A stretch of 61,459 nucleotides of DNA from a virus (taxonomy: Duplodnaviria; Caudoviricetes): positions 1-61,459 of the IMG/VR virus record IMGVR_UViG_3300032299_000267, one strand, 5' to 3'. Made by a program: the position numbers and the translations under genes. Positions 6,951 to 50,739 of the stretch are shown in pieces (the first letter of the stretch is position 1; every line of letters starts with the position of its first letter). The notes beneath the pieces were generated by a model, which saw nothing but the letters and a program-made list of their open reading frames with translations, ran no database searches and had not been told where the DNA came from.

Positions 6951-7505
6951 ATGAGTACACCTAAACCAAATCCCATTCAAAGGGGAGAGTCAGAAAAAAA
7001 TATAGCATATAAAATGCCTATGCCTATGCCTAAGGGAACGCCTATGCCTGAGCCTAGGAGAACGCCTATGCCTGAGCCTAAGGGAACGCCTATGCCTGAG
7101 CCTAAGGGAACGCCTATGCCTGAGCCTAGGAGAACGCCTATGTTTCAGTCTAAGGGAACGTTTATGCCTACACCTAGGCCGCCTATGCCTCGTGTGCAGC
7201 CAAAGCCTTCAGTGACGACTAGGCCTATGCCGCCTATGCCTCAAGTGCAGCCAAAACCTTCAGTGACGCCTATGCCTATGCCGCCTATGGAAGAGTTTGT
7301 GCCTGAGGATAGTAGCTATGATTATAAACCTGGATATGAACCTACATTTAGACCAATGCCGGTACCAAAAAATCCTGACCCTCCTGTATACATGAAAAAA
7401 GGTGGCAAAGTTAAATCTTCATCTGCTAAAAGAAAAGCATCAACCGCATCTAGTCGCGGCGATGGTATTGCTCAACGCGGCAAGACAAAGGGGCGGATGG
7501 TGTAA
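6951..7505 (+). CDS. Pro/Met-rich repeat protein with GG motif
   Basis: PMPEPKGT repeats; C-terminal MKKGGKV...SSRGDGIAQRGKTKGRMV. Confidence 0.7.
   Translation: MSTPKPNPIQRGESEKNIAYKMPMPMPKGTPMPEPRRTPMPEPKGTPMPEPKGTPMPEPRRTPMFQSKGTFMPTPRPPMPRVQPKPSVTTRPMPPMPQVQPKPSVTPMPMPPMEEFVPEDSSYDYKPGYEPTFRPMPVPKNPDPPVYMKKGGKVKSSSAKRKASTASSRGDGIAQRGKTKGRMV
7041..7160 (+). repeat. 24-bp coding tandem repeat x5 (PMPEP[KG/RR]T)
   Basis: cctatgcctgagcctaagggaacg-type units at 7041, 7065, 7089, 7113 and a degenerate one at 7137. Confidence 0.9.
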
Positions 7506-13930: not shown

Positions 13931-14800
13931 ATGGCAAGTACATACAGCGGCAACCTAGCGATTGAGCTTATTGGTACAGGCGACCAGGCTGGTACGTGGG
14001 GGCAAACTACTAATACAAACTTAGGAACCGCGCTAGAGCAGGCAATTACTTCTACTGCGAGCGTTACATTTACCGCCGGTGGTAACTCTGCTATTGCGCT
14101 AGCACAAACTAACGCATTTCAAGCTGCTCGTAGCGCAAGATTGACCCTTGTTGGATCTACTACCGCAACCCAATATTTGTGGGTTCCGAATATTAACAAA
14201 CAGTACATTATTAGTAACGGGCTTAGTAACGCAATCATTATTTCCAACGGATCTAATGGCGCTGGGACGGGAGCAACGATAACGGTTCCTCCTGGTAAAT
14301 CAATGATTGTGTACAACGATTCTGTAAACATAATTGAAGTATTTAATTATGCAAACACTTTGAGCGTTAATAATTTAACTGACTCTAACCTAACTAACGC
14401 TAACCTAACTAATGCTAACCTAACTAATGCTAACCTAACTAATGCTAACCTAGTTAACTCTAACCTAGCTAACCCAACAGTTAATGCGTACACAGAAAGC
14501 GTAGTTGCAATAGGCAGTTCTACTTCTACTCAGACCATCAACATTGCTAACTCAACTATTGTAACGGCTACGTTAACGGCTAACTGTACGTGGACGATGC
14601 CATCTAACACCGCTGGCAAGTCTTTTATTTTGTTGTTAAAGACAGGTAACGGTGGTTTTACCAGTACGTTTACAGGCGTTAAGTTTCCGGCAAACACAGC
14701 TCCAACTATCACCACCGCCAACAACAGCATGGACATATTGACGTTTGTTGCTGATGGGGCGAACTGGTATGGTAATTTTGCACAGGGTTACGTACCCTAA
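13931..14800 (+). CDS. Tail fibre protein with NANLT repeats
   Basis: ELIGTGDQAGTWGQTTNTN N-terminus; C-terminal APTIT...DILTFVADGANWYG. Confidence 0.65.
   Translation: MASTYSGNLAIELIGTGDQAGTWGQTTNTNLGTALEQAITSTASVTFTAGGNSAIALAQTNAFQAARSARLTLVGSTTATQYLWVPNINKQYIISNGLSNAIIISNGSNGAGTGATITVPPGKSMIVYNDSVNIIEVFNYANTLSVNNLTDSNLTNANLTNANLTNANLTNANLVNSNLANPTVNAYTESVVAIGSSTSTQTINIANSTIVTATLTANCTWTMPSNTAGKSFILLLKTGNGGFTSTFTGVKFPANTAPTITTANNSMDILTFVADGANWYGNFAQGYVP
14386..14475 (+). repeat. 15-bp coding tandem repeat x6 (NLTNA)
   Basis: taacctaactaatgc units; last two degenerate. Confidence 0.9.
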
Positions 14801-23400: not shown

Positions 23401-24487
23401 TATTACTGATGGAAATGAAAAGGAAGTTGTTGTTACGCCTACAGGTGGTGGTACCGGACTAGTTCCGCCTATTACATACACAGTAGATAACACCACCGAT
23501 CTTACTCCAGGGATACGGCAGAATCCTCCGGTATCACCAAAACCTGATGTGCTTACAGGCCCTTCCACAGGAAATGTAACTACTGGTGGTATTACAGGGA
23601 ATGTTATTACAGATAATGTTATTACAAGAGATGCAACCACTGGTACTACAGGGAATGTAACCACTACTGGTGGTACTACAGGGAATGTAACCACTACTGG
23701 TGGTACTACAGGGAATGTAACTACTGGTACTAAAGGAACCGCAACTACTACTGGTACAGGATATACGCCCGGCACAATGACAAGAGAAGAGATGGACGCA
23801 TATACTAAAAATTATGCTGCCCAGCCTGCTACAAATTCTCCTTATAAGCCACTTACTGGCCCACAGTTTTCAATTGCTGGATCGCTGCCATACCAAGACA
23901 TTAATAAACAACTTGGTCTGACCGGATTGTATAAACAAATGTCAGACAAAATGCCCGAGCTACAGCAGGGGTTGAATTTTAATTTAAATCAAGCTCAAGC
24001 TATGGCGTCTCCGTTTGCTAATGTCACGCCTGGCATAGTATCTTTGCAATCAGTTGCAACGCCGCAAGCTTATAATCCTGTTACTTCTTTTGACCCTACT
24101 GGACAAGCTTACTCTCCAGGATTATCTTCAGAAGAACAGGCATATCTTTCTATGTTGCAAAGCCGGAGCAAACCAATGGCATCTGGTGGCATGACCAGTT
24201 ATAACTTGGGTGGTTATTCTGATGGGGGTCGGTTACTCAGAGGCCCTGGTGATGGTGTTAGTGATTCTATTCCAGCTACTATTGGCGATCGTCAGCCTGC
24301 TCGTCTTGCAGATGGAGAGTTTGTTATACCTGCGAGAATTGTTTCAGAGCTTGGGAATGGAAGCACAGATGCCGGAGCAAGAAAGCTCTATGCAATGATG
24401 GAAAGAATACAACGCGCACGCAGCAAAACTGTTGGCAAAAATAAGGTTGCCGTAAAAAGCGGCGCAGATAGATTGTTACCAGCATGA
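20438..24487 (+). CDS. Large internal virion/ejection protein
   Basis: 1349 aa; N-terminal GRGEDKVLVHM...TINPETGLPE plus G/A-rich segment; C-terminal GPGDGVSDSIPA...ARLADGEFV; several GG motifs. Confidence 0.7.
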   Translation: MSLHTLANHLQTAGRGEDKVLVHMTPDEVSGLQSLAMAHGGSLTINPETGLPEAGFLSGILPMIAGAALAATGVGAPMAALMVGGAGTIATGSLGKGLMMGLGAYGGAGLGAGLLGGAAAAAPAAAGAAGMAPMVSAGAMPGVVGGMGAMAPAAGGMAGAAGAATGAASAMPVGLQSATGITPQTVSQLPMNAANAGNAFMPTATSAPVVSTTPQTVAAPAQSVQSATAFDRFKSIPGKAYDLLTGSGPEAEKAREEFYKQNKNYLIAGGVGVLGASRDDPRKPKETQYDIRDYDWNTRNYSPSSQVPGSTSERTYFAADGGLMSLPVEQMSQQNAMSDNTRYPMAFQKTPNYSMPSQGPISQNVVYPATDAGTNTYNGSERGMASGGVVALASGGTPQDKAYDNWLKTNIKPYDLSKIVTPKDGFTAANVISTYTPVLNKEKAELVNSENLLKSYIDPKTGQPKAGYGAIVDSLRGVVEEQRKNLTDIVNTVYGKIPKTDINFDDPSKAAQQKTNQTNEFNAVNTLLNSYVNSTTLKGTDFAKDYANNLAKEDSQKQESTLYADKVAPALKALSAYTGKDAKGQDITGTLTNLTSGWKAENTRQSEDVTKLKAALVSAGLMDAKGNFTPAADKYAGLTGVAKSALDKQTSEVNLAADAQQKALQEFNTSTARGSTGIASRSLQTAAGGNREDIQAQINAIEANPAQPNASIYQSKYSDAQQKQLANLRSQLNTPKDVLDPITGTFGPEKILPKYVPIAYNSVTATKGWDTTSKVIEPDDVTRVFEEVAGRKPTSSELTDYVGDKLSVQQLADSVNKLPDLTLAKQFTDKELQEQAKYYWGREMTTGELANYKSKKLGSFAAVRNALTSEKMYVDNLNNINKAIVDKQNTPVLPAANRVDISSVFVDVLGRRPTKSEADSYIAKKINKNDLIKELEGSPEYERKLYQTEYDKYGNAIEYDENGKEILKDRNGKVIKTDATGNVTTDNVITDGNEKEVVVTPTGGGTGLVPPITYTVDNTTDLTPGIRQNPPVSPKPDVLTGPSTGNVTTGGITGNVITDNVITRDATTGTTGNVTTTGGTTGNVTTTGGTTGNVTTGTKGTATTTGTGYTPGTMTREEMDAYTKNYAAQPATNSPYKPLTGPQFSIAGSLPYQDINKQLGLTGLYKQMSDKMPELQQGLNFNLNQAQAMASPFANVTPGIVSLQSVATPQAYNPVTSFDPTGQAYSPGLSSEEQAYLSMLQSRSKPMASGGMTSYNLGGYSDGGRLLRGPGDGVSDSIPATIGDRQPARLADGEFVIPARIVSELGNGSTDAGARKLYAMMERIQRARSKTVGKNKVAVKSGADRLLPA
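23566..23730 (+). repeat. T/G-rich coding repeats (TGNVTTTGGT; 30-bp unit)
   Basis: tggtactacagggaatgtaaccactactgg exact at 23641 and 23671, partial at 23701, degenerate copies upstream. Confidence 0.85.
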
Positions 24488-27415: not shown

Positions 27416-30400
27416 ATGGCAAACGCATTTGACCAGTTTGACGTTGCAGAAAAGGCTGGCAATCCGTTTGACCAGTTTGATGCCGTAAGTAAGCAAGCCA
27501 AACGTGAGCGCACCATGGGCGAGACTGCCAAAGACATAGGCGCTGGTCTAGTGTCTGGCGCTGGCGCTCTTACACAATTACCTGGTCAAATCTACGGTCT
27601 AGCTACAGGCGACTTCTCTGATACTGGATTGACTAAAGTCGGGCGCGAGATGCGCGAGTACGGCGAGTCTATGAAGTCAGAGGAGTTAAAGCGCAGGGAG
27701 CTAGAGCGCACGGCAAAGATTGCTGAAGCCAGCAAAGAAGGTCAAGTATCTGCTGGTGTTACAGCATTCATGGAGACTATTAAAGATCCCGCTCTTCTAT
27801 CAAACTTTATTGCAGAACAAGCTCCCAACCTGATCCCCGGTCTTGCGGTCGCTCGTGGCCTGCGTCTTGCAGGTGCTGGAGCGAAGGCGGCTACAGCTGG
27901 TGCGGTAGGCACAGGTGCTACGCAACAGGGCGCGGATATAGGTGCTGGAGCATACGAACAGTTGTACAAAGAGATGATATCTAAAGGTGTGCCAGATGAA
28001 GAGGCTGCTGGTAAAGCATTAGGATACGCCCGCGCTACTGGTGCTGCCGCTACTGTCATATCTGCTTTAGCCCAAAGATTGCCCGGAGGTCGCGCAATTG
28101 AAGAAGCTATGGCTAAAGTGCCAGGCAAGGGCAGTCGTTTAATAGGCGCTGTCAAAGGCGGCGCTGGCGAGACGGTCAGCGAGATGATTGAAGAGGGCGG
28201 CGGCAAGGTAGCCCAAAACTTGGCTATGAAGCAGATCAAGCCAGAGCAAAGCCTGACAGAGGGTTTGGGTGAGACTATGGGTATGGCTGCTGTTGGTGGT
28301 CTTGGCCTCGGCACTGCTGCTGGACTATCCCGTCGCGCTCAATCAGAAACTATTCCACCTGAAAAACAGACCACTGAAGAACAGTTAAAGCCAGTTGAAG
28401 AAAAACAAATTCCGTTATTGTTAGAGGGTAAAGGCGCATTTGTTCCCGTCGGTTTGCCAGATGGCTCTGTCGCTATGACAAGAGAGGATTTAGCAAAGTA
28501 CGAAGAAGAGCAGTTTCAAAAAAAATACGAACCGCAACCTGTAGAGCGTAGGGGTGATTTTGAGGAACCTACGGCGGAAGAGGTGGAGCGTCCTGCTTTG
28601 ACGTATGGTGAGGCAACCCAAGAAGTTGAGTACCTCAAGCAACAACCAAAGTCACCAGAAGTGCAAGCAAGGATTCAAGAGCTTCAAGGCATCAAGATGG
28701 ACATGATCATGGATGGCATACGCCGCAGCCGCGAACCTGTTCGTCCAGAGCTTGTTGAGCTTAGAAATCAAATGGAATCTGGCATTATTGCAGAGGACGA
28801 GACTACTGAGTTTATAAACCAAGCTTTAGCAGATTTTCGTCGCGCCACCTTAAAGCTTGAAAAAATTCCAACAACAGAAGCGCAAGCGGAAGTTAAGGAG
28901 TTAATTAAAGAAGCAAACGGTCTAGACAAACAGATCCGTTCCTTGCGCGGCCCAGTAACAGATAGGGCTGACGATTTGAAAACTGCACTTAGGGGTAAGC
29001 TTTATCCTGGTGAAGTTATTGATATCAGTCCTGAGAAAACAGTTAAATACTTAGCCGCTAAAGAAGGCAAGGCATCTTATTTAATTGCTGATTTAGTTTC
29101 AGACGGAATTTTAGACAGATGGCTTCCAGAGGAGAATAGACATACATCTCCTATGTTTGATGCGCAAGTGGCAGAAGAATTTATAAAAGACTTATTGCGG
29201 ACAGAAGAAGCCCAAGATCCTCGAAACAAAATACTGCCGTTTGAAACGCAAGATCAGATTGATAAGTTAAGTCAAGATCTTTCCAATCTTGATACGCGAA
29301 TTCAAGAATTAAAATCACCAGAAATAGTGCAGGAAGCAGTAGGAGAAATTCCAATTGAGGAGCGTCGCGCAGAAATAGAGCAGCTCGCTCCACAAGAAGG
29401 GTTTGTAGGAATTCAGGAACCTTTACCAGCACCACCCGAAGAACAAGTAAAGGATAAAGACGAATATTATCCAGATAAATATTTGAGCATTGAACCGCAA
29501 CGTGGCGTAGAAAAAACACCATCGTTCCGTCGTGAGGCTGCAAAATTAATTAAAACATACAACACGAACGATAAAATGACTGCCGAATATGCAATGTCAG
29601 CTATTGGTCGCATATATGACAGAACTAAAACTGAAGAAAATATTAAGCCACGCCGTCGTGGAGCAACATGGATTCGTCGCAAACTCTTAGAAGCTGTTGA
29701 TGAAGGTGTATTAGATGAAAGGGCGCTTGATTTTGCTGAATGGCTAATTAAACAAAACCCTGCGTTAGTAGAAGATTTAGCTATAGCAGTTCAAACGGCT
29801 AAAGAAGGAAATGAGGCATCAGGAGGATACAATCCTTTTGGTAGGATGTTTACTTTGTTTAAAGGGCGGGCGTCAGAAAAAACTGCGGTGCATGAAATAC
29901 TGCATCACATGGAACGCATGATGCCTGAAAATGTCCAAGATGAAATACGTAAGCTGTGGATAAAGAACTTTATAAAAGCAAACAAAGAAGCTTCAAAAAG
30001 TACCAATGAAAACGTAAAAAGTTTTTTCAATACCCTTAACAACTATCACTTTGGTGGTGGCGCTCAATCAGAAACACAATTTAGATCAGCTTTGCAAATG
30101 ATTTCGGATGGCAAAGTTCCATCTCAATATTATCAGTACGCAAATGCTTCAGAGTTCTGGGCAGTAAATGCTACTGACATTATGTCTAAGCGTTTTGAGG
30201 CAAAGCAAGGTGTGATCAATAGCTTGCGTAATTGGTTAAGTGAGTTTGTGCAATACATAAAAGATGCGTTTGGCTTTACTTCTAATGCGCCAATTATTAA
30301 AGCTTTGGATAGCCTAATAAAAGGTGACGGTAAATTTAAGAGTCAGACTATGCTTGGAACTGCAACTACGTATGAAAGCATTGCTGGCAAAGCCAAAGAT

Positions 30401-42482: not shown

Positions 42483-43164
42483 CGAAAGATCCTTTGTATG
42501 TGCCAAATGTGGCAGTCAACTCTGGGTACGCCTCGCTATCACGCTGCTCGATGATCTTGTAAATGTTGGCGTTCGTGCGCCATACAGTCATCACATCATC
42601 CTTACTTTGGCACATATCAAGAGCGAAGATGGTCTGCTTTACTACAACGTGCAGCCAGTCATTCCAATCAGTACCAGGTTCAGACGAAACCTTGAGTTGC
42701 CATTGACTATCCGTTCGCCCTTCCATTTTCTTTGGTGGCGGAACTTCAACAGCTTTCGGCGTAGCTTTAGGTGGCGCTGCCTGCGGCGCAGTCTTTGTTG
42801 CTTGGTTACCATCGTCATCCTCCGTTGCGAGGGAGCAGGCGGCCATCAGCGAATACCTTCTTGCATAACTCAAAGCGCTCCCGAAGCCCTGCGCGTCCTG
42901 CTTAGTTGCTGGCATGAACAAACTGCCGCCTGACAGCTGCTCGCCAGATTCATGTATAAACACTGTAGATACTTTTACTCCGCCAGCATGTTCCTCAGTC
43001 AACTGCATAAGATAGATGCCGTTGTTGTTGAGAGCGTCAATGACCGCCTCGATACACGCAGACAGATCCGCATACTTGCTACGGAAGTGCGGGTTGGTGC
43101 TAGACTTCAGTGCTGGCCCAAACTCTCGCTGCGCTTTTACTAGCGCCGATGCTATTGCTTTCAT
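42469..43164 (-). CDS. ERF-family ssDNA-annealing recombinase
   Basis: NPHFRSKYADL, HESGE, QGFGSALSYARRYSL, EDDDG; AAGGAG RBS before ATG 43164. Confidence 0.9.
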   Translation of the reverse strand: MKAIASALVKAQREFGPALKSSTNPHFRSKYADLSACIEAVIDALNNNGIYLMQLTEEHAGGVKVSTVFIHESGEQLSGGSLFMPATKQDAQGFGSALSYARRYSLMAACSLATEDDDGNQATKTAPQAAPPKATPKAVEVPPPKKMEGRTDSQWQLKVSSEPGTDWNDWLHVVVKQTIFALDMCQSKDDVMTVWRTNANIYKIIEQRDSEAYPELTATFGTYKGSFDAKD

Positions 43165-44033
43165 GCCTTCTCCTTTAAATATTTCTGATACTGGCCACAG
43201 AAAGGCGCTGCCTGACAGAAGCTCTCGCATCGTGTCCTGCCGCCTTCTCTGGTTTCTATGTGGTGATCTGGGTATTTCGTTACTACAAAATTCTCTGCTT
43301 CCGACAGCGTGTTGCAAACCTTCTTAGCCCGAACACCGCCAGCTTTCATGATTGCGTAGGTAGTTGGCTTCTCCCACATTTCCTCCGGCGTACACTCTGG
43401 CATCATCCCGCTGACTGCTGCAAAGTTAGCCTCGTTGTGCAGAGTTAGCCGCTGCTTAACAAAAGCCTCGCGGTCTTCGTAGTCCCATAGAGGTATATCT
43501 AGTGTGACGATAGGTGACTGCGGGTAAGTTTCTTTCAGAGCTGCTTCTCTGCGCGACCAGTCACGCACGATGCCGATGATCTGTAGGCCAGCTACCTTGT
43601 CGCCCTTCACGCGTTCGACCAGCCATGCATACAGGTTTAACTGGTCTATCCACTCTTGCTTCTCTTGCTGGACAGTCCAGGCTGACGTCACCTTATAATC
43701 GGCAATAAGTACCTTGCCATCTACCAATGTTTGCAAATCTATGGCACCACTTATAGACCAACCCTCAAACGTAGTGAACAGACGTTCTTCTACTATGTGA
43801 TGGTCATCCTTGCCATGTTCCAAGATATTGTGGACAGCAGATCCGAACAGCGACCAGACCATGTCGCTAGCGTCTTGCTCGATATCTTCCTGATGTTGTC
43901 TGCGAAGTAGTACAAGTTGCGGAGGCGACAGTATTTCTGTTACGCTTATCTCACTGTTTCCCTTGCTGTAATGCGGCCTGCGAATGACGTTAACGAACGT
44001 CTCCGGTAAATTAAATTTGTTTGTTAATTTCAT
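43161..44033 (-). CDS. PD-(D/E)XK (Cas4/RecB-like) exonuclease
   Basis: GSAVH, EERL, SGAID, DYK, QLNLY and C-terminal Cys cluster (RCESFC...FC); paired with ERF. Confidence 0.85.
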   Translation of the reverse strand: MKLTNKFNLPETFVNVIRRPHYSKGNSEISVTEILSPPQLVLLRRQHQEDIEQDASDMVWSLFGSAVHNILEHGKDDHHIVEERLFTTFEGWSISGAIDLQTLVDGKVLIADYKVTSAWTVQQEKQEWIDQLNLYAWLVERVKGDKVAGLQIIGIVRDWSRREAALKETYPQSPIVTLDIPLWDYEDREAFVKQRLTLHNEANFAAVSGMMPECTPEEMWEKPTTYAIMKAGGVRAKKVCNTLSEAENFVVTKYPDHHIETREGGRTRCESFCQAAPFCGQYQKYLKEKA

Positions 44034-44378: not shown

Positions 44379-45335
44379 ATGGCCATAACGGACGACGAGT
44401 TTATTGCTGCATGGAATCGAAACCCCAGCATTAAAGGGTGTTCTGAGCTTCTTGACATAAATGTTCGCAATATTGCTAGGCGGCGAAGATCAATAGAACA
44501 GAAACGTGGGATCATATTAAAAAGCGCAAGCATTAACAGTCCCGATTATTTAGTCACCATCCCGCACGATAACATTCGTGTTACTGCCGAAGTAGAAAAT
44601 GGTTCGATACTTGTTGCCAGTGATTGCCACTACTGGCCAAATATAATAAGCACCGCGCACAGAGCATTCGTTCTCTTTGTCAAAGAAATGAAGCCTAAGG
44701 CTATCGTATTAAACGGCGACGTTTTTGACGGAGCCAGCATCAGCAGGCACCCGCCAGGCGGCACATGGGAATCCATGCCATCGGTTAAGCAGGAACTAGA
44801 CGCCTGCAAAGAGCGTGTATCAGAGATAGAAGACGCCTCCCCCAATTCAAAGATGCATTACATTTGGGGTAACCACGACCTCCGATACAATGCGCGGCTC
44901 GCTGCCCAAGTAGGGGATGGATTTAAAGATATCCAAGGGATGAACCTTAAGGATCATTTCCCAAAGTGGATATTCTCTATGTCTCTCATGGTAAATGACA
45001 ACACCATGATTAAGCATCGTTATCATAATGGAATTCACGCTGTTCATAACAATTTAATAAAATCGGGGGTTAGCTTCGTCACAGGCCACCTTCACAGTTT
45101 GCGGGTAGTCCCGTGGACTAATTATTTGGGAACCTGTTATGGCGTCGATACAGGCTCACTGGCTGATGTTTGTGGCCAACAGTTCACGTACTCAGAAGAT
45201 AACCCAAAGAACCATAGAAGCGGATTTGCAGTGTTAACATTTTATAAAGGTAAGCTGCTTCCGCCGGAGCTTTGTGAGGTGCTGGACGAGGACGCTGGAA
45301 TTATATATTTTCGCGGAAACGTCTTTAAAGTGTAA
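44379..45335 (+). CDS. Calcineurin-like metallophosphoesterase
   Basis: SDCH, NGDVFD, GNHD, GHLH motifs. Confidence 0.85.
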   Translation: MAITDDEFIAAWNRNPSIKGCSELLDINVRNIARRRRSIEQKRGIILKSASINSPDYLVTIPHDNIRVTAEVENGSILVASDCHYWPNIISTAHRAFVLFVKEMKPKAIVLNGDVFDGASISRHPPGGTWESMPSVKQELDACKERVSEIEDASPNSKMHYIWGNHDLRYNARLAAQVGDGFKDIQGMNLKDHFPKWIFSMSLMVNDNTMIKHRYHNGIHAVHNNLIKSGVSFVTGHLHSLRVVPWTNYLGTCYGVDTGSLADVCGQQFTYSEDNPKNHRSGFAVLTFYKGKLLPPELCEVLDEDAGIIYFRGNVFKV

Positions 45336-45874: not shown

Positions 45875-46035
45875 TGCAGCCAAATATTTTAGAAGACTTG
45901 CGCGAGGTAGCAGTCCTGTACCACGACAGCAGTCTTCTATCTTACAAGCTGCAAGAAGTATTAGAAAAACACCTGACCCAGCCAGGCCAGACCTGCGGCG
46001 AGCGGGGGTGTACAGATTATTCGCTAGACACGTAG
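45874..46035 (+). CDS. Small hypothetical protein (53 aa, below cutoff)
   Basis: TAATG coupling; MQPNILEDLREVAVLY... Confidence 0.5.
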   Translation: MQPNILEDLREVAVLYHDSSLLSYKLQEVLEKHLTQPGQTCGERGCTDYSLDT

Positions 46036-46100
46036 TATCAACGAAGTCGGCGTAGGCCAGCGTAGCATCGACATACGCGCCGGATAATCGTAACCGGCAC

Positions 46101-46129
46101 TTGCATAAATTCTTTTCCTGATTTATTAT
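46101..46129 (+). promoter_or_regulatory. Sigma-70 promoter
   Basis: TTGCAT-17-TATTAT. Confidence 0.65.
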
Positions 46130-46134
46130 TTGCC

Positions 46135-46245
46135 TGTCACTGTGTCAGGCGGAGACAATCAACCCAAGCCCTTAAGCTTTGGTTCTTAGCCCTTAAGTGG
46201 GAACGTGCCTGACACACGGAGAACCAAGCCTTAAGGGTTTTTTCA
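46135..46245 (+). ncRNA. Structured leader with crossing complementarities (attenuator/pseudoknot candidate)
   Basis: 46141-50 pairs with 46207-16; 46166-86 pairs with 46220-40; followed by a T-run. Confidence 0.55.
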
Positions 46246-46562
46246 TTTGCAGTGACCGTACCTTCCACGATAGTAGAGAGCCTGCATGGGCTGCCGGAGA
46301 GAATACACTGGTCGAGGTTTCACCTGCCTGCGTACCACACTGCCTGTTAGCGAGGGACAGTACAAGAGAAGAGAGACATGGGTGATAGACAACTCTCTTA
46401 TCGAGCTAATCGCTACCTTCTGGGTTTGCCAGTATTCAGCAGTAAGAATATGGGCAAGGATGATTCCCCATCTCGTGTGCTGCGCATTTGATGGTGGGCT
46501 ATCACCCTTGGGGAACCTAAACACGGAGGATGCAATAGATGTGAGTTGGCAGGAACTAACTG

Positions 46563-46591
46563 TTGACACGTATAAGATTACATATTATTGT
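46563..46591 (+). promoter_or_regulatory. Sigma-70 promoter upstream of the RAMP operon
   Basis: TTGACA-17-TATTGT, then GGAGG RBS and ATG 46615. Confidence 0.65.
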
Positions 46592-46614
46592 TCGCCCTAG
46601 ATATAGGAGGTCAC

Positions 46615-46785
46615 ATGAAAGAAGGAGAGTGGATTAAGGATCATCTGCGGGAGTTTGCAGATCGTTTGGAGCAGTCGGTGATAGAGCGGGAAAGAGAAAG
46701 AGCGGCAATCATTTGCCACTACTACAGAGATTGGCAGGATAACCCTGCTGAAGCCATAGCTACGGCTATATTAAAAGGAGAGTGA
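46615..46785 (+). CDS. Small hypothetical protein
   Basis: GGAGG RBS; ERERAAIIC...AIATAILKGE. Confidence 0.65.
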   Translation: MKEGEWIKDHLREFADRLEQSVIERERERAAIICHYYRDWQDNPAEAIATAILKGE

Positions 46786-46787
46786 AG

Positions 46788-47453
46788 ATGGATATGAAAG
46801 TCAAAGAAACATCAGTAGTTATTTCTGCACCCAATTTCCAGGCAGTCGATGTTCTGCTACAGGGTACAGCGCCGCTAGTCGTTGAGCGGTTTAGCAAGAA
46901 GGCAGAACTAATGGCTAAGATGGCAGAGGGTAAGTCTGCCGGTAGCAAGAAGGTTCGTGATGCCCGCGACTATGACAAAGAAGCAGAGGCCGCACGTTAC
47001 CGCTCAGAAGAAAACTGGGAAGGCATGAACGCTGCTGCTTTCCGCGCCGGTATGATCAGCGCATGTCGCTTAGTAGGTTTTAAGATGACGCTCGCCAAGC
47101 TATCAACATTTGTTGTGGCTGACGGCTTTGATCTCCAAGATGGCATACCGCTTATCCGTATCTATGGCACTAGCGAAACCTATACAGCTCACACACGCAA
47201 CGCTACGGGCGTGGTTGATGTCCGTAGCCGTCCCATGTACCGTGAGTGGGCGGCACGTTTGCGTATACGTTTTGATTCGGATCAGTTCACAGCACAAGAT
47301 GTCTACAACTTAGTCAGCCGCGTTGGGTTGCAGGTAGGTATAGGTGCAGGACGTCCTGACTCTAAGGCTTCCGCTGGCTGTGGTTTTGGTACGTTTGAAA
47401 TTGTGCCCAACGACAAAGAGAAAGAAGTCGTAAAGAAATTCGGCATTAAGTAA
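46788..47453 (+). CDS. Stand-alone RAMP-superfamily (Cas7/Csm3-like) protein; putative effector of the adjacent GGY-NN array (VIPR-like)
   Basis: N-terminal strand VLLQGTAPL, GMNAAAFRAGMISA helix, RPMYREW...IRFD, and C-terminal glycine-rich loop GLQVGIGAGRP...GCGFGTF. AAGGAG RBS; alternative GTG start at 46782. Confidence 0.75.
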   Translation: MDMKVKETSVVISAPNFQAVDVLLQGTAPLVVERFSKKAELMAKMAEGKSAGSKKVRDARDYDKEAEAARYRSEENWEGMNAAAFRAGMISACRLVGFKMTLAKLSTFVVADGFDLQDGIPLIRIYGTSETYTAHTRNATGVVDVRSRPMYREWAARLRIRFDSDQFTAQDVYNLVSRVGLQVGIGAGRPDSKASAGCGFGTFEIVPNDKEKEVVKKFGIK

Positions 47454-47457
47454 TTAA

Positions 47458-47970
47458 GGCAGGCCCGTCGTGGTGAGTTGCGATCCGGCCCGGTTGGGCA
47501 AGGCAGGCTAGGTTGGGCGCGGCATGGTAGTGCGAGGTGGGGCGAGGTTTGGTTTGGCAAAGCAGGTCAGGCGAGGTTTGTTGGGGTATGTTGCGTTGCT
47601 GCGCGGCTTGGTTCGTTAAGGCAGGCAAGTTCCGGCTGGGCGGGGCACGGTGCGGTTCGTTTCGGCAGGTAGGGTGGGGAGAGGCGAGTTCCGGTAAGGT
47701 AGGTTAGGTGTGGCGGGGCAGGCACGGTATGGCTGGGCGGCGTGTGTTCTGGCATGGTTTGGTATGGCAGGCATGGCACAGTGGGGAGAGTCCAGGCGGG
47801 GCAGCGTGCGGTAAGGTTCGATACGGCAGGTAAGGCGAGGCGAGTTCGGGTAAAGCGAGGTTTGGAAAGGCAGGCGGGGTTAGGCGGCGCAAGGTGGAGT
47901 TAGGAGTGGTGCGGTGAGGCAGGTGAGGCGGGGCGGGGTTTGGTCGGGCACGGTAAGACATGGCAGGTAA
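47458..47970 (+). repeat. Non-coding GGY-NN pentamer array punctuated by GGCA tetramers (~10 units; putative guide-RNA array)
   Basis: Parses completely into 93 pentamers and 12 tetramers (513 bp). Delimiters at 47458, 47502, 47561 (AGCA), 47620, 47664, 47717, 47766, 47825, 47869, 47918, 47962, plus GGTA at 47698. Confidence 0.9.
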
Positions 47971-47987
47971 ACTTTAAGGAGATCAAC

Positions 47988-48470
47988 ATGGAAGTAATGA
48001 AAGCAGAAGCACTAGCAGAAGAACGCAAGCTATTAGAAAAGATTGCCAATAAAAATGGCGGCTTGTTGATGGTTGATGATGTACTGGATGAAGCTAGAAA
48101 TCCTAAGTCAATCCTCCACAAACATTTCCAGTGGGATGATGACAAGGCCGCAGAAGCTTATCGCAAGATGCAGGCACGGCAGCTTATCCAGAAGTGCGTA
48201 GTCACAATTGAGAAAGCGCCAGACGTTCCTATTCGTGCGTTTGTAAGTCTATCTACCGACCAGTACGAGGGCGGTGGCTATCGCATGACGGCTAATGTTC
48301 TTTCAGATGATCAACAGAAAGGTCAGTTACTACACGATATGCACCTCACATTATTGAGGTGGAAGAAGCAAGTGAATTTGTTGGACACAGAGACAGAAGA
48401 AATCCTTAACCGATTGGAGCAACTTATCACTCGCCGCGTAAGTGATCGTCGTGATGGGGCTAGGCCATGA
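47988..48470 (+). CDS. Partner protein downstream of the array, unknown function
   Basis: AAGGAG RBS before ATG 47988; VLDEARNPKSILHKHFQWDDDKAAEAYRKMQARQLI. Confidence 0.75.
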   Translation: MEVMKAEALAEERKLLEKIANKNGGLLMVDDVLDEARNPKSILHKHFQWDDDKAAEAYRKMQARQLIQKCVVTIEKAPDVPIRAFVSLSTDQYEGGGYRMTANVLSDDQQKGQLLHDMHLTLLRWKKQVNLLDTETEEILNRLEQLITRRVSDRRDGARP

Positions 48471-49588
48471 TTCAGTTCAACAGATACCGTTTGCCGGACG
48501 AATCAATAGACTTTAATTTGTCGTTTATCGGGTTATGCAATGCAATTGCATCGCAAATCAATGGTAATTGCGACAAAGCAATACAAACATTGCTGTCTTT
48601 GTCCGAAAAATATACACACAATTCGGACAGGCTGGCGGCGGTGGCAGCCAGGATGTACTTTTGGGGCAAGATGAGCTGGAATGATTTAGAAAAGCTGCTG
48701 CCGGAAAGATTGCCATTAACTTTTTTGTACAAGCAGGAACTGGTGGGGTGTTTGGGTTTGGAGCAGGCCGCCCGCAAATGGCGGATCACCGAAGACGATT
48801 GGAATTTGTATCAAGGCTTTACACACGATACATACTTTGAAAGAAAGGTAAGCACGGAAGGAGTAATATACCGCCCTCGTAACGCAGGATTCTTTTCAAC
48901 CGTAGAGAACATGATTGCCGCCCAAATTATTGCAGAATTGGAAGGCAAGCAGCTACTTGTTGACTTGAATGGTAACTGGTGGCCATACAAAGAACCGTTT
49001 GAAGAGATCTTTAATGAGTCATTTGCGTTCACACGACTCACTAATGTGCCAGAGATTGGTTTTGATTACGTCAGAAGTGGGTGGTTAAATCCGTCAAACG
49101 AAACGGCATCATACTTAGCAGACATGAAACTATGGGCGTATACCGCGATCATGGATGACATAAGTAGGATCGCGCCATCCATCCCATGCATGGACGCATC
49201 TGGCGTTATGTTCGTGCGCGGCGGTGACAAGCTACAGACTGAGACCATCCTGCCACCCGTGTCGTTGTTACAGCGGGACTTGCGGTGGATGAGTCGTAGG
49301 TGTGAGGATAGGTACCTGCTGTCGGATGATAAGAATGTAGGTGAGGCTGTTGCTGCGCTAGATTCGACTGTAATTAACCACAGCGACCAGGTCGAAGGCG
49401 GTTATCATCATAGGTACGGTGAGAAGGTTAGCTGTATGCCTATTCTAAAAAACTATATGTACATGCTCGAAGCAAAAGAAAACTTCTCTTGCCCGTCGGC
49501 GAACATTGTCAACGCTGCGCAATGGAGTCGCAACGATAGCCAGAACAATAGTTTGTCAAATCCAGTCTATCGGTATCTTTTAATTTAG
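48467..49588 (+). CDS. GT-B fucosyltransferase-like (GT23/NodZ-like) protein
   Basis: AGFFSTV, FVRGGDK (compare HVRRxDK), LLSDD, SANIV motifs. Confidence 0.55.
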   Translation: MIQFNRYRLPDESIDFNLSFIGLCNAIASQINGNCDKAIQTLLSLSEKYTHNSDRLAAVAARMYFWGKMSWNDLEKLLPERLPLTFLYKQELVGCLGLEQAARKWRITEDDWNLYQGFTHDTYFERKVSTEGVIYRPRNAGFFSTVENMIAAQIIAELEGKQLLVDLNGNWWPYKEPFEEIFNESFAFTRLTNVPEIGFDYVRSGWLNPSNETASYLADMKLWAYTAIMDDISRIAPSIPCMDASGVMFVRGGDKLQTETILPPVSLLQRDLRWMSRRCEDRYLLSDDKNVGEAVAALDSTVINHSDQVEGGYHHRYGEKVSCMPILKNYMYMLEAKENFSCPSANIVNAAQWSRNDSQNNSLSNPVYRYLLI

Positions 49589-49602
49589 CGTTATATATTT
49601 AT

Positions 49603-50739
49603 ATGAAAACACTACTCGACTTAGGTACACAGCCGCTCGTCAATAATTTATGTGAGACGAAAGAAGATTCTCTATCCGTAAAAAGGTATCGCCTGCGCGC
49701 TGAGATAGCGGACGATATTCTAATTAATTTGGATGCAGAATCTACCGTGCCGCCCGATGAATTATTTGGACACTACCTATATAGGTCGGGTGTCAACATA
49801 CCGTACATCAGTCATTGCGACGGCATGGCAGAGCTATTTGTTAGCAGCCGCAGAGGCACTGTCATTGATGTTGGGGGTAATGATGGCACGTTGTTAAAAT
49901 CATTCCGGCGCACGATGGGGATACAGAATCTCATTAATGTAGACGCAAGCAGCAGCATGAGGGAAGACAATGAATCTGCGGGTATTAAATATGTAGAAGG
50001 GTATTTCAGTTCTGACATGGATTTACCCACCGCAGACATTATTACTAGCACCAACGTGTTTCAACACACCAGTGACGTACATAAATTCTTAGCTGCGATA
50101 GTCAAACATCTGCACGACGACGGCATCTGGCTGCTTGAATTTCCGTACACACTAAACACTCTCAAGACTTTGCAGTTCGATCAGTTTTATCATGAACATT
50201 ATTTTTATTGGTTGATGACTCCGCTTATCAAATTACTTAGCACGTATCAGTTAGAAGTGATACATGTAGAGGAACACTACATTCATGGCGGCAGTCTGAG
50301 GTTACTTATCAGCAAAGATAAGGATAGCTGGCACAAGTTTGACTATGCTAAGTATGTAGAGATGGAAATTGGTTTTGATTATCAAGGCTGGAATGACAGA
50401 GTTGCTGACAAAATAAAAAAAGACAAAGAATTTATTGAGAATTTACATGGTACGGTTGCGTTCTTTGGGGCAGCAGCCAAGGGTTGTGTGTATTTAAATG
50501 CGTTGGATCTTCAGGCGAGTGATAAGTATTTATACATCGTGGATGATACACCCGCAAAAGAAGGTAAGTGGATGCCAGGCACTGGATTGCAGGTAGTGGC
50601 AAGAGATTCACTGCGGTACCAGATACCAGATAATTTAATCATCTTAGCCCACAACTTTGCAGATCATATTATTAAATCATTAGGTGGCTATGATGGAAAC
50701 ATCATTACCATGTATGGCGATAATCATGGAAACATTTGA
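49603..50739 (+). CDS. NDP-sugar C-methyltransferase-like SAM protein
   Basis: LDLGTQPLVN, IDVGGNDGTLL, TNVFQH, FDQFYHEH, IHGGSLR, FGAAAKG, DDTPAKEG. Confidence 0.85.
   Translation: MKTLLDLGTQPLVNNLCETKEDSLSVKRYRLRAEIADDILINLDAESTVPPDELFGHYLYRSGVNIPYISHCDGMAELFVSSRRGTVIDVGGNDGTLLKSFRRTMGIQNLINVDASSSMREDNESAGIKYVEGYFSSDMDLPTADIITSTNVFQHTSDVHKFLAAIVKHLHDDGIWLLEFPYTLNTLKTLQFDQFYHEHYFYWLMTPLIKLLSTYQLEVIHVEEHYIHGGSLRLLISKDKDSWHKFDYAKYVEMEIGFDYQGWNDRVADKIKKDKEFIENLHGTVAFFGAAAKGCVYLNALDLQASDKYLYIVDDTPAKEGKWMPGTGLQVVARDSLRYQIPDNLIILAHNFADHIIKSLGGYDGNIITMYGDNHGNI

What the first reader, a model, noticed from the sequence alone, without database searches (positions are those of the whole stretch)
46788..48470. 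Compact non-CRISPR RNA-guided system candidate: lone RAMP gene + GGY-NN repeat array + partner gene
Seen: a 221-aa ORF with an N-terminal strand (VLLQGTAPL) and a C-terminal glycine-rich loop (GIGAGRP...GCGFGTF). Four bp after its stop begins a 513-bp, strictly phased array, followed by an RBS and a 160-aa gene. All sit on one strand behind a sigma-70 promoter at 46563. No cas1/2/3/5/6/10 gene or repeat-spacer CRISPR array is visible. Established: this motif layout characterises RAMP proteins, and Cas7/Csm3 polymerise along guide RNAs with a fixed nucleotide period. Inference: the protein coats RNAs from the array, perhaps one subunit per 5-nt GGYNN unit, gripping GGY and presenting NN for target recognition, for example against competing phages or for gene silencing. 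From memory this matches an architecture recently reported as VIPR (viral interference programmable repeat); I cannot verify that here, so it may be a new member rather than a wholly new system.
Basis: partly seen in the sequence, partly recalled or inferred. Interest (0 to 1): 0.96.

Follow-up and report, generated by a model that had tools for sequence, protein, structure and literature searches.

The report
Phage VIPR system with staggered guide array
This is a phage-borne VIPR system, a recently described CRISPR-like RNA-guided DNA silencer made of one RAMP protein, an array of GGY-NN guide RNAs and one accessory gene, so it is a real and tidy example of a kind already in print rather than a new kind.

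Summary
The window is a complete 61-kb tailed-phage genome. The 221-aa protein has one sequence match in the PDB, the SUSP1 Vipr protein (profile E 7e-7). Its confident model (pLDDT 93) matches type III/VII CRISPR backbone RAMPs.

The array is not "strictly phased". It holds 10 cassettes of GGYNN units, each closed by an invariant GGCAG that overlaps the next unit by 1 nt. The phase therefore slips by -1 at each boundary. Across 75 sources, 512 of 616 cassettes measure 5n-1 nt. This fits the "staggered vrRNA array" of the 2026 VIPR preprint.

Over 348 unique cassettes GGY is conserved (G 89%, G 87%, Y 87%) and NN is near maximum entropy. vipr, array and partner travel together in 80 of 84 related loci; the 4 misses are cut contigs. 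The partner is unrelated to SUSP1 vap1, and there is no 3' tail, so this is not type II.

Natural targets are unresolved. One candidate, a T7-like viral contig, is matched by two cassettes, but the exact hit is at chance level.

Verdict: new member of a known kind.

The parts
46563..46591 (+). sigma-70-like promoter match (TTGACA-17-TATTGT) upstream of the operon
   Evidence: 10 of 12 matches. It is the only site found in 46000-49800, against 4.5 expected in shuffles, so it is a consensus match only.
46615..46785 (+). 56-aa ORF just upstream of vipr; context, not part of the conserved module
   Evidence: no family match. tblastn found it in 7 of 84 related loci.
46788..47453 (+). vipr: 221-aa Vipr-family RAMP protein
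   Evidence: The only PDB sequence match is the SUSP1 Vipr protein: phmmer E 4.2e-4 and profile E 7.1e-7. BLASTP against the SUSP1 gene product gives E 6e-9. AF2 pLDDT is 93.1. Foldseek top hits are chains of Csm, type VII and Cas7-11 complexes. It matches phrog_4652 at E 3.5e-19.
47458..47966 (+). staggered vrRNA array: 10 cassettes of GGYNN units bounded by 11 GGCAG delimiters
   Evidence: No Rfam family matches. The fold energy equals that of shuffles, z -0.03.
47458..47501 (+). cassette C1 (44 nt; NN code CC GT GA GC CC CC TG AA)
   Evidence: an identical cassette is first in L007.
47502..47560 (+). cassette C2 (59 nt; 11 NN)
   Evidence: found in no related locus; exact 1-nt-skip scan of viral contigs gave 0 hits.
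47561..47619 (+). cassette C3 (59 nt; delimiter degenerate, AGCAGG)
   Evidence: shared with 5 loci, with 0-2 NN differences but 5-14 differences in total; exact scan gave 0 hits.
47620..47663 (+). cassette C4 (44 nt)
   Evidence: shared with L006, L007 and L009.
47664..47716 (+). cassette C5 (53 nt; irregular length, with an internal 1-nt register slip)
   Evidence: the same 53-nt cassette occurs in L006.
47717..47765 (+). cassette C6 (49 nt)
   Evidence: shared with L006; exact scan gave 0 hits.
47766..47824 (+). cassette C7 (59 nt)
   Evidence: found in no related locus.
47825..47868 (+). cassette C8 (44 nt)
   Evidence: found in no related locus.
47869..47917 (+). cassette C9 (49 nt; NN code GG TA GG AA GG TA GT GC GA)
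   Evidence: shared with 5 loci; one exact 1-nt-skip match, in viral contig G001; the reversed-order control gave 2 hits.
47918..47961 (+). cassette C10 (44 nt; NN code GA GG GG TT CG AC AA AT)
   Evidence: 15 of 16 NN letters match G001 at 13950-13973(-); 1 of 200 shuffles did as well.
47976..47981 (+). ribosome-binding site AAGGAG of the partner gene
   Evidence: read from the sequence.
47988..48470 (+). 160-aa accessory gene (vap-like), conserved partner of this Vipr clade
   Evidence: It matches phrog_15946 at E 1.4e-19. It accompanies vipr in 80 of 84 loci. It is homologous to Cy-LDV1 g33, Donkeykong gp50 and ODay gp20. It shows no similarity to SUSP1 vap1, E 19. There is no Pfam, NCBIfam or PADLOC match. 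AF2 pLDDT is 67.5 and no PDB fold match was found.
48467..49588 (+). 373-aa ORF overlapping the partner's stop (ATGA); context, not conserved with the module
   Evidence: No family match. tblastn found it in 7 of 84 loci.

Best explanation
The locus is a VIPR (Viral Interference Programmable Repeat) system carried by a complete 61-kb tailed phage from aquatic metagenomes.

Shown here:
- The gene at 46788-47453 encodes a Vipr-family RAMP.
- 47458-47966 is a staggered array of 10 guide cassettes. Each cassette holds 8-11 GGYNN units plus a closing GGCAG, whose last G is the first G of the next cassette.
- 47988-48470 encodes the accessory protein that accompanies this Vipr clade.

Inferred from the published SUSP1 work:
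- The operon transcript, or pieces cut from it at the GGCAG punctuation, is coated by Vipr, one protomer per 5-nt unit.
- GGY is buried in the protein and NN is exposed.
[quoted passage not shown] My own inference: the GGCAG unit is punctuation, not guide. It is invariant, flanks every cassette on both sides, and does not extend the two candidate target matches.
For: Protein:
- The only PDB sequence hit is 'SUSP1 Vipr protein' 36pp_D, at E 4.2e-4 with the single sequence and E 7.1e-7 with an 83-sequence profile.
- The SUSP1 genome gives one match, in its vipr gene. BLASTP gives E 6e-9 and 25% identity over 187 columns.
- The AF2 model has pLDDT 93.1 and pTM 0.87.
- Foldseek against the PDB gives 52 matches at E <= 0.001. 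The top ones are chains of type III-A Csm, type VII, Cas7-11 and Cmr complexes, with TM 0.38-0.47.
- The thumb Arg (R148, 81 of 83 sequences) and the G-loop Arg (R189, 83 of 83) align with SUSP1 R138 and R179 (residue roles from the preprint).

Array:
- The period-5 signal is clear.
- 512 of 616 cassettes in 75 sources have a length of 4 mod 5.
- Over 348 unique cassettes the unit reads G 0.89, G 0.87, Y 0.87, with NN entropy of 1.95 and 1.97 bits.
- Within 52 cassette families, the share of variable columns is G1 7.7%, G2 8.7%, Y 20%, N4 11.5% and N5 16.2%.
- Cassette lengths are not multiples of 3, so the tract is not coding.

Linkage:
- An array lies next to vipr in 77 of 79 related viral loci. 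In 74 it is directly downstream and in 3 upstream only. The 2 without an array are cut inside vipr.
- vipr and the partner occur together in 80 of 84 loci.
- The same layout is seen in Cyanophage Cy-LDV1, Gordonia phage ODay and Mycobacterium phage Donkeykong.

Literature:
- The preprint defines VIPR by these features and describes staggered arrays with 1-nt overlap.
Against: - Nothing here shows that the array is transcribed, processed or bound. Contigs of relatives in four metatranscriptome runs cover vipr, parts of the array and the partner, but DNA carry-over is not excluded.
- Two SUSP1 G-loop contacts are not conserved in this protein: D177 aligns with A187 and W178 with G188. H17 aligns with E33.
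- About 40% of units inside cassettes are not intact GGY.
- No convincing natural target was found. There is no 1-nt-skip enrichment in the phage's own genome or in 527 kb of related loci.
- Exact scans for C2, C3 and C6 found nothing.
- The single exact C9 hit is matched by 2 hits for a reversed-order control.
- According to the preprint text I read, staggered arrays were not among the architectures confirmed by small-RNA sequencing.
Confidence: 0.88

Rival explanations
1. It is a VIPR system, but its guides serve the phage's own programme or act on the host (timing of gene expression, takeover of host genes) rather than silencing competing phages or satellites.
For: No competitor target could be established. 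The module sits among early and replication genes: exonuclease, phosphoesterase, methyltransferase, ParB-like protein and helicase. The host genome is unknown, so host targets could not be searched.
Against: The nine regular cassettes tested (C5 was left out) match the phage's own genome no better than shuffles, with a best NN match of 68-81%. The preprint found no self-targeting and found targets in satellites and prophages. Cassette sets differ between phages whose Vipr proteins are 96-100% identical. That fits an arms race better than a fixed regulatory programme.
Confidence: 0.08
2. The G-rich tract is not a guide array. It is a low-complexity spacer, a 5' extension of the partner's reading frame, or a G-quadruplex-type regulatory element between two genes. 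On this reading the RAMP-like protein acts without it.
For: Gene callers in public data extend the partner ORF into the tract, giving products of 197-224 aa (P0121-P0127). In phage Donkeykong the tract is annotated as a CDS. The fold energy is no better than shuffles.
Against: Cassette lengths of 5n-1 break any reading frame between relatives. The position-specific pattern GGY conserved / NN free holds over 348 cassettes. Array length varies from about 80 to 1400 nt between the same two genes. The adjacent protein is a sequence homologue of a protein solved with such an RNA.
Confidence: 0.03
3. It is a decaying or inactive VIPR remnant.
For: Many units are degenerate; for example C3 has 5 non-GG units of 11. 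C5 has an internal register slip. One delimiter is mutated (47561). A187 replaces the acidic residue present in 62 of 83 family members.
Against: vipr DNA is 89-96% identical to relatives while the protein is 96-100% identical, which indicates purifying selection. Both ORFs are intact. The preprint itself notes frequent internal degeneracy of vrRNAs. 15 of 83 family members also carry Ala at position 187.
Confidence: 0.05

Closest known systems
VIPR type II of Escherichia phage SUSP1 (bioRxiv 10.64898/2026.04.26.720920 and 10.64898/2026.04.26.720927; PDB 36pp)
   Same: A Vipr-family RAMP detectable by sequence. GGY/NN pentanucleotide guides. A minimal vipr-plus-accessory operon in a phage. 9-12 units per guide, within the published range of 9-16.
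   Different: SUSP1 vrRNAs are separate units, each with a leader and a conserved 3' tail with a pseudoknot. They lie after vap1 and upstream of vipr. Here the cassettes abut with a 1-nt overlap, have no tail and no structure, and lie between vipr and the accessory gene. The accessory protein is unrelated to vap1. Vipr identity is only 25%.
Staggered vrRNA arrays described in the VIPR preprint (legend of fig. S18, read as text only)
   Same: Adjacent guides share 1 nt, so the end of one marks the start of the next. Here 512 of 616 cassettes measure 5n-1 nt.
   Different: I could not see the figure or the supplementary tables. I therefore cannot say which VIPR type carries them, or whether the GGCAG delimiter and this clade are the ones shown there. 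The text says small-RNA sequencing confirmed the ribozyme and single-guide architectures, not the staggered one.
Class 1 CRISPR backbone RAMPs (chains of type III-A Csm, type VII, Cas7-11 and Cmr complexes)
   Same: RRM core, glycine-rich loop before the last strand, and a beta-hairpin thumb. Periodic binding along a guide RNA; this last point comes from the papers, not from a test here.
   Different: No CRISPR repeats, no Cas1 and no other cas genes. Sequence identity to these chains is 7-13% and TM only 0.35-0.47. The period is 5 nt with 2 pairing bases, rather than 6 nt with 5.
Unannotated relatives in isolated phages: Cyanophage Cy-LDV1 g34/g33, Mycobacterium phage Donkeykong gp49/gp50, Gordonia phage ODay gp19/gp20
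   Same: Homologous Vipr at 56%, 34% and 31% identity. Homologous partner. GGCAGG-punctuated arrays next to the genes.
   Different: Cy-LDV1 has a second array after the partner gene. Donkeykong has its array upstream of vipr, annotated there as a protein. All are labelled 'hypothetical protein' in the records.

Membership tests
VIPR system | A Vipr protein: a minimal RAMP with RRM core, G-loop and thumb, homologous to described Viprs | tested here: met
   The PDB sequence search returns only the SUSP1 Vipr protein. BLASTP against SUSP1 Vipr gives E 6e-9. The AF2 model has pLDDT 93.1, with a beta-hairpin at 129-151 and a Gly-rich loop at 184-201. Foldseek top hits are Csm, type VII and Cas7-11 chains.
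VIPR system | Adjacent non-coding tract of tandem YNNGG (GGY/NN) units, at least four in a row | tested here: met
   In-phase runs of up to 7 GGYNN units. Ten cassettes of 8-11 units. It is the only such region in the window.
VIPR system | GGY conserved and NN hypervariable across related guides | tested here: met
   Over 348 unique cassettes: G 0.89, G 0.87, Y 0.87, with NN entropy 1.95 and 1.97 bits.
VIPR system | Minimal locus (vipr plus one accessory gene), with no cas genes and no CRISPR array, mostly in viruses | tested here: met
   The window is a complete virus record with terminal repeats. It carries terminase and virion genes. There is no Cas1 and no repeat-spacer array. vipr and the partner occur together in 80 of 84 loci.
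VIPR system | vrRNAs are expressed and co-purify with Vipr | not testable with these tools
   The only data are contigs of relatives in RNA libraries, which cannot show transcripts or their ends.
VIPR system | Guides match natural DNA targets by the 1-nt skip rule | tested here: inconclusive
   There is no enrichment over other skip rules or shuffles in the window or in related loci. C9 has 1 exact hit, against 2 for a control. C10 matches the same contig with 1 mismatch, which 1 of 200 shuffles equals. Hits with <=1 mismatch: 4 under skip 1 against 0 in 8 controls, but three of the four are versions of C9 and were found by ascertainment.
VIPR type II (SUSP1 / P. fulva clade) | Discrete vrRNAs with a conserved structured 3' tail, and the vap1 accessory gene | tested here: not met
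   There is no tail or structure: fold z -0.03 and no Rfam hit. Cassettes abut one another. The partner against vap1 gives E 19.
VIPR with staggered array | Neighbouring vrRNAs overlap by 1 nt | tested here: met
   83% of 616 cassettes measure 5n-1 nt between GGCAGG delimiters. In the window, 9 of 10 do; C5 is 53 nt.
CRISPR-Cas class 1 | Repeat-spacer array, an adaptation module (Cas1/Cas2) and multiple cas genes | tested here: not met
   Only the RAMP fold is shared.

The most novel reading that the evidence does not exclude
In this clade the guide unit is a movable cassette. An invariant GGCAG, in effect a repeat unit one N short, punctuates the operon RNA between vipr and its accessory gene. 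It sets the register of separate Vipr filaments and serves as the crossover point at which related phages swap, gain and lose guides. Two cassettes of this phage (C9 and C10) are aimed at a T7-like phage of the same waters (G001): one at a small gene next to its primase/helicase, the other at a conserved motif of a 1068-aa virion protein. If so, these would be natural targets for a VIPR staggered array, an architecture that the preprint text I read does not list among those confirmed by small-RNA sequencing.
Probability: 0.3. Interest if true: 0.55.

Novelty: new member of a known kind. Interest (0 to 1): 0.38.

Why it matters
VIPR was first described in preprints of April 2026, and its experiments rest on type II systems of E. 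coli and Pseudomonas phages. This locus is a clean, complete example of the staggered-array form. According to the preprint text I read, that form was not among the architectures confirmed by small-RNA sequencing.

The locus comes with 74 related viral loci and about 350 distinct in-register cassettes. Together they show how such arrays are built: cassettes of 5n-1 nt closed by GGCAG. They also show how fast the cassette content turns over while the protein stays nearly constant.

The locus offers compact material, a 1.9-kb operon, for testing three things: how guides are delimited without a tail or a ribozyme, what the unrelated accessory protein does, and whether aquatic phages use VIPR against T7-like competitors. 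It also shows that genes labelled 'hypothetical protein' in well-studied actinobacteriophages and a cyanophage belong to the same system.

Tried and rejected
1. Strict single-phase array: rejected.

2. Targets in the phage's own genome or in the vipr neighbourhoods of relatives. 348 unique cassettes were scanned against the window, and 296 of them (8 NN or more) against 527 kb of loci. Skip 1 did no better than skips 0, 2 and 3 or shuffles. The skip-3 excess is the arrays matching themselves.

3. Exact 1-nt-skip scans of viral contigs.
- C3: 0 hits. C2: 0 hits. C6: 0 hits.
- C9: 1 hit. The reversed-order C9 control gave 2 hits, so the C9 hit alone is at chance level.
- C10 (16 letters): 11 stretches. 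Five are copies of one 98-99.6% identical sequence, two are copies of another, and four are singles. None is related to G001. The five-copy site is not wobble-aligned in its ORF.

4. 'Skip base falls on the wobble position' as support for the G001 hits. This is weak, because 40% of noise hits do the same.

5. Enlarging the G001 family. The viral scan found only G001 itself and one fragment. The metagenome scan gave 12 loci. In the 96% relative the C9 site has 4 mismatches. In the 79% relative the C10 site has 2 mismatches.

6. Host. Genome contigs gave only two MAG contigs, one Verrucomicrobiota (4.2-kb contig) and one Synechococcaceae. That is too little to name a host. No tRNA was found.

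7. Partner function. There is no Pfam, NCBIfam, PADLOC or PDB fold match, and the model is poor at pLDDT 67.5. The Atlas lists only viral 'hypothetical protein' clusters.

8. Expression. Four RNA-library runs hold only contigs of relatives, at 90-99% likeness. They cannot show transcription, ends or processing. Parts of the array without cover mean nothing.

9. VIPR type number. It could not be assigned, because the defining figure and data tables are images or supplements. They may list this clade and its accessory gene.

10. Hammerhead-interspersed array: rejected, as there is no Rfam match at E <= 1.
Full report
**What is in the sequence**

The window is a complete virus record of 61,459 bp with direct terminal repeats. 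It encodes a large terminase, virion structural proteins, a helicase and an exonuclease. It is therefore a tailed phage.

Four bases later, at 47458, a tract begins that is 47% G. Its G autocorrelation is 0.44 at lag 5 and 0.38 at lag 10. It ends with GGCAG at 47962-47966. AAGGAG follows at 47976-47981, and a 160-aa ORF runs from 47988 to 48470.

A density scan for GGY..GGY found this one region and no other in the window. The promoter-like site at 46563-46591 is a 10-of-12 consensus match. One site was found where shuffles give 4.5, so it proves nothing. There is no Cas1 (the control rang in 7 of 14 genomes), no repeat-spacer array and no tRNA.

**The array is staggered, not strictly phased**

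- No single 5-nt phase holds more than 28 of 104 units.
- In-phase GGYNN runs are 2-7 units long, and the phase falls by one from run to run.
- The slips sit at GGCAGG. There are ten exact copies in 509 nt, out of 25 on this strand of the whole window. One more, at 47561, is degenerate (AGCAGG).
- This yields ten cassettes of 44, 59, 59, 44, 53, 49, 59, 44, 49 and 44 nt.
- Each regular cassette reads GGCA + n x GGYNN, with n from 8 to 11. Put another way, it is n+1 units whose last unit is always GGCAG and shares its final G with the next cassette.
- C5 (53 nt) has an extra internal slip.

The tract matches no Rfam family at E <= 1. It folds no better than shuffles, z -0.03. There is therefore no tail, pseudoknot or ribozyme.

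**The protein**

- Pfam, NCBIfam and PADLOC give nothing. PHROGs gives phrog_4652, of unknown function, at E 3.5e-19.
- Against all PDB chain sequences the only match is 36pp_D, 'SUSP1 Vipr protein'. The single sequence gives E 4.2e-4, over the thumb-to-G-loop region. A profile of 83 diverse family members gives E 7.1e-7.
- I located the SUSP1 gene in KT454805, at 28474-29061 on the minus strand. BLASTP gives E 6e-9 and 25% identity over 187 columns.
- The AlphaFold2 model is confident: pLDDT 93.1, pTM 0.87. Its order of elements is a first strand, a helical insertion, RRM helix 1, strands, a long beta-hairpin at 129-151, helix 2, a glycine-rich loop at 184-201 and a last strand.
- Foldseek against the PDB copy (entries to 8 April 2026, which does not hold the Vipr structures) gives 52 matches at E <= 0.001. 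They are led by chains of type III-A Csm complexes (8do6_E, E 9.5e-6), type VII complexes, Cas7-11 and Cmr, at TM 0.38-0.47.
- That these roughly 200-aa chains are the Csm3/Cas7 backbone subunits is my recollection. The tool names only the entries.

Of the SUSP1 RNA contacts named in the structure preprint:
- R138 aligns with R148, which is Arg in 81 of 83 family members.
- R179 aligns with R189, which is Arg in 83 of 83.
- D177 aligns with A187. The family has E in 60, A in 15 and D in 2.
- W178 aligns with the invariant G188.
- H17 aligns with E33. The family has N in 34 and H in 21.

The grip on the two guanines is therefore probably built somewhat differently in this clade. The clade has a second glycine-rich stretch with a conserved aromatic residue at position 200 (W in 54, F in 17, Y in 5).

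**Relatives**

The family is large. There are 5,022 proteins at E <= 0.001 in the 90%-clustered collection. There are 2,166 cluster representatives in the 50%-clustered library.

Among isolated phages, tblastn finds 31 records: Cyanophage Cy-LDV1 (56% identity), 25 Mycobacterium records and 5 Gordonia records (29-34%).

In IMG/VR, 79 distinct loci encode a relative.
- 77 of them have a GGY-dense tract beside the gene.
- In 74 it lies directly downstream, and in 3 upstream only (L059, L077, L082).
- The 2 without a tract are contigs cut inside vipr (L081, L083).

The 160-aa partner (phrog_15946, E 1.4e-19) accompanies vipr in 80 of 84 loci examined: 79 viral, 3 isolated phages and 2 MAG contigs. 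The 4 misses are contigs that end before it. The distance between the two genes ranges from 77 to 1,401 nt, which reflects arrays of very different length.

The flanking ORFs (56 aa upstream, 373 aa downstream) occur in only 7 of 84 loci. The conserved module is therefore vipr-array-partner.

Cy-LDV1, ODay and Donkeykong show the same GGCAGG-punctuated tracts and homologous partners.

**Anatomy of the cassettes across the clade**

I split the arrays of the window and 74 loci at GGCAGG. That gives 616 cassettes of 29-80 nt, and 512 of them (83%) have a length of 4 mod 5. The peaks are at 39, 44, 49, 54, 59 and 64 nt.

Over the 348 unique in-register cassettes the five positions of the unit read G 0.89, G 0.87, C/T 0.87, then two positions with 1.95 and 1.97 bits of entropy. 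About 60-65% of internal units are intact GGY.

Within 52 families of similar cassettes, the share of variable columns is 7.7% and 8.7% for the two G, 20% for Y, and 11.5% and 16.2% for the two N. So the guanines are the most constrained, the pyrimidine toggles freely, and a guide's NN code is fairly stable once formed.

Five loci have Vipr proteins 96-100% identical to the window's, while the vipr DNA is 89-96% identical. That is a sign of purifying selection. These loci carry different sets and orders of cassettes.
- C1, C3 and C4 recur in L007.
- C3, C4, C5, C6 and C10 recur in L006.
- C9 recurs in five loci.
- C2, C7 and C8 recur in none.

Lengths that are not multiples of three rule out a coding tract, even though gene callers have extended the partner ORF into it.

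**Comparison with what is known**

A text search finds the VIPR preprints. Here is what I saw of each.
- Preprint 10.64898/2026.04.26.720920: abstract, all of Results, Methods sections 18, 20, 26 and 27, and passages including the supplementary figure legends.
- Preprint 10.64898/2026.04.26.720927: abstract and sections 5-6.
- Preprint 10.64898/2026.10.15.759431: abstract and outline only.
- Preprint 10.64898/2026.10.21.760802: passages only.

These texts define VIPR as follows:
- a minimal, mostly phage-borne locus;
- a Vipr RAMP and one accessory gene (vap);
- vrRNAs of 9-16 YNNGG units;
- one protomer per unit, with GGY sequestered and NN pairing with DNA;
- every third target base skipped;
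- the outcome is transcriptional silencing of competing elements.

They list seven types and mention 'staggered arrays with overlapping vrRNAs', in which neighbours share 1 nt. The text says small-RNA sequencing confirmed the ribozyme and single-guide architectures.

The present locus meets every sequence-level criterion (see the membership table). It is not type II:
- SUSP1 guides are discrete, with leader and tail.
- They lie elsewhere in the operon.
- SUSP1 vap1 is unrelated to the partner here, E 19.

I could not assign the type number. The figure and data tables are not held as text, and supplements are closed.

**Targets**

I applied the published 1-nt skip rule.
- The nine regular cassettes of the window (C5 was left out) do not match the phage's own genome better than shuffles.
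- The clade's cassettes show no skip-1 excess on the window or on 527 kb of related loci.
- Exact scans of IMG/VR found nothing for C2, C3 and C6.
- C9 found one site, in a 33-kb contig, G001. A control with the same pairs in reverse order found two. The C9 hit is therefore what chance gives.

G001 is unrelated to the window (no blastn or tblastx hit). It carries a T7-type primase/helicase (phrog_239) and a 1068-aa virion protein (phrog_6958).

On that same contig C10 matches 15 of 16 letters inside the virion protein gene. This was equalled by 1 of 200 shuffles of C10, roughly 0.04 after allowing for the eight other regular cassettes tested.

Across 99 kb of G001-like DNA, hits with <=1 mismatch number 4 under skip 1 and 0 in eight controls. 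But three of the four are versions of C9.

In a 79% relative the C10 site keeps 14 of 16 letters. Four synonymous differences fall on skipped bases. In the 96% relative the C9 site has two codons replaced.

Both sites put the skipped base on the wobble position, but so do 40% of noise hits.

I rate G001-like phages as a genuine target at about even odds, and nothing more.

**Expression**

Four metatranscriptome runs hold contigs 90-99% like the stretch. They cover vipr, pieces of the array with other cassette content, and the partner. These are relatives, assembled contigs, and DNA may be present in such libraries. This is not evidence of transcription.

**Verdict**

- The system is a new member of a kind published in 2026, in its less-studied staggered form.

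Noticed in passing
L002:2501-2887 (Mycobacterium phage Donkeykong, NC_051648.1 gene 48): The GGCAGG-punctuated GGYNN array upstream of the Vipr homologue gp49 is annotated in the record as a protein-coding gene ('hypothetical protein' gp48). It is probably a guide array rather than a CDS.
   Followed up: partly
L001:4622-4845 and L001:5430-5600 (Cyanophage Cy-LDV1): This phage has two arrays: one between the Vipr homologue g34 and the partner g33, and a second after the partner, just before the excisionase. The module sits next to the cI-like repressor region.
   Followed up: partly
window 46788-47453 versus L005-L008 and L035: vipr DNA is only 89-96% identical while the proteins are 96-100% identical. 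Almost all differences are therefore synonymous, which indicates strong purifying selection on Vipr while the neighbouring array is reshuffled.
   Followed up: partly
window 43161-44033 (-): This 290-aa exonuclease (phrog_2139, E 5.9e-50) also touches phrog_1706, labelled 'CRISPR/Cas system associated' (E 1.1e-6). It lies 2.7 kb upstream of vipr on the other strand. Its presence in related loci was not tested; the neighbouring gene 44379-45335 matched 0 of 84 loci.
   Followed up: no
L108:1277-1299, with L109, L110, L113 and L118: The exact C10 pattern occurs in one sequence that is 98-99.6% identical across five viral contigs from different samples, including a giant-virus MAG and a 201-kb contig. 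It is not in the codon register of the overlapping 213-aa ORF, so it is probably chance. The wide spread of this near-identical DNA is nevertheless odd.
   Followed up: partly
L095:537-562 versus G001 537-562: In the 96%-identical relative of the candidate target phage, two codons inside the C9 site are replaced (Lys to Pro, Ala to Gln). The surrounding 146 nt are 83% identical. This could be escape from targeting or plain divergence.
   Followed up: no
P0121-P0127: Public gene calls for the closest partner homologues are 197-224 aa rather than about 160. The callers start the ORF inside the stop-free G-rich array.
   Followed up: no
window 7016-7289 and 23579-23755: These are tandem repeats with periods of 24, 72 and 51 nt, and of 15, 30 and 84 nt, all multiples of three. 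The second set lies inside the 1349-aa ORF. They look like repeated peptide modules of structural proteins.
   Followed up: no
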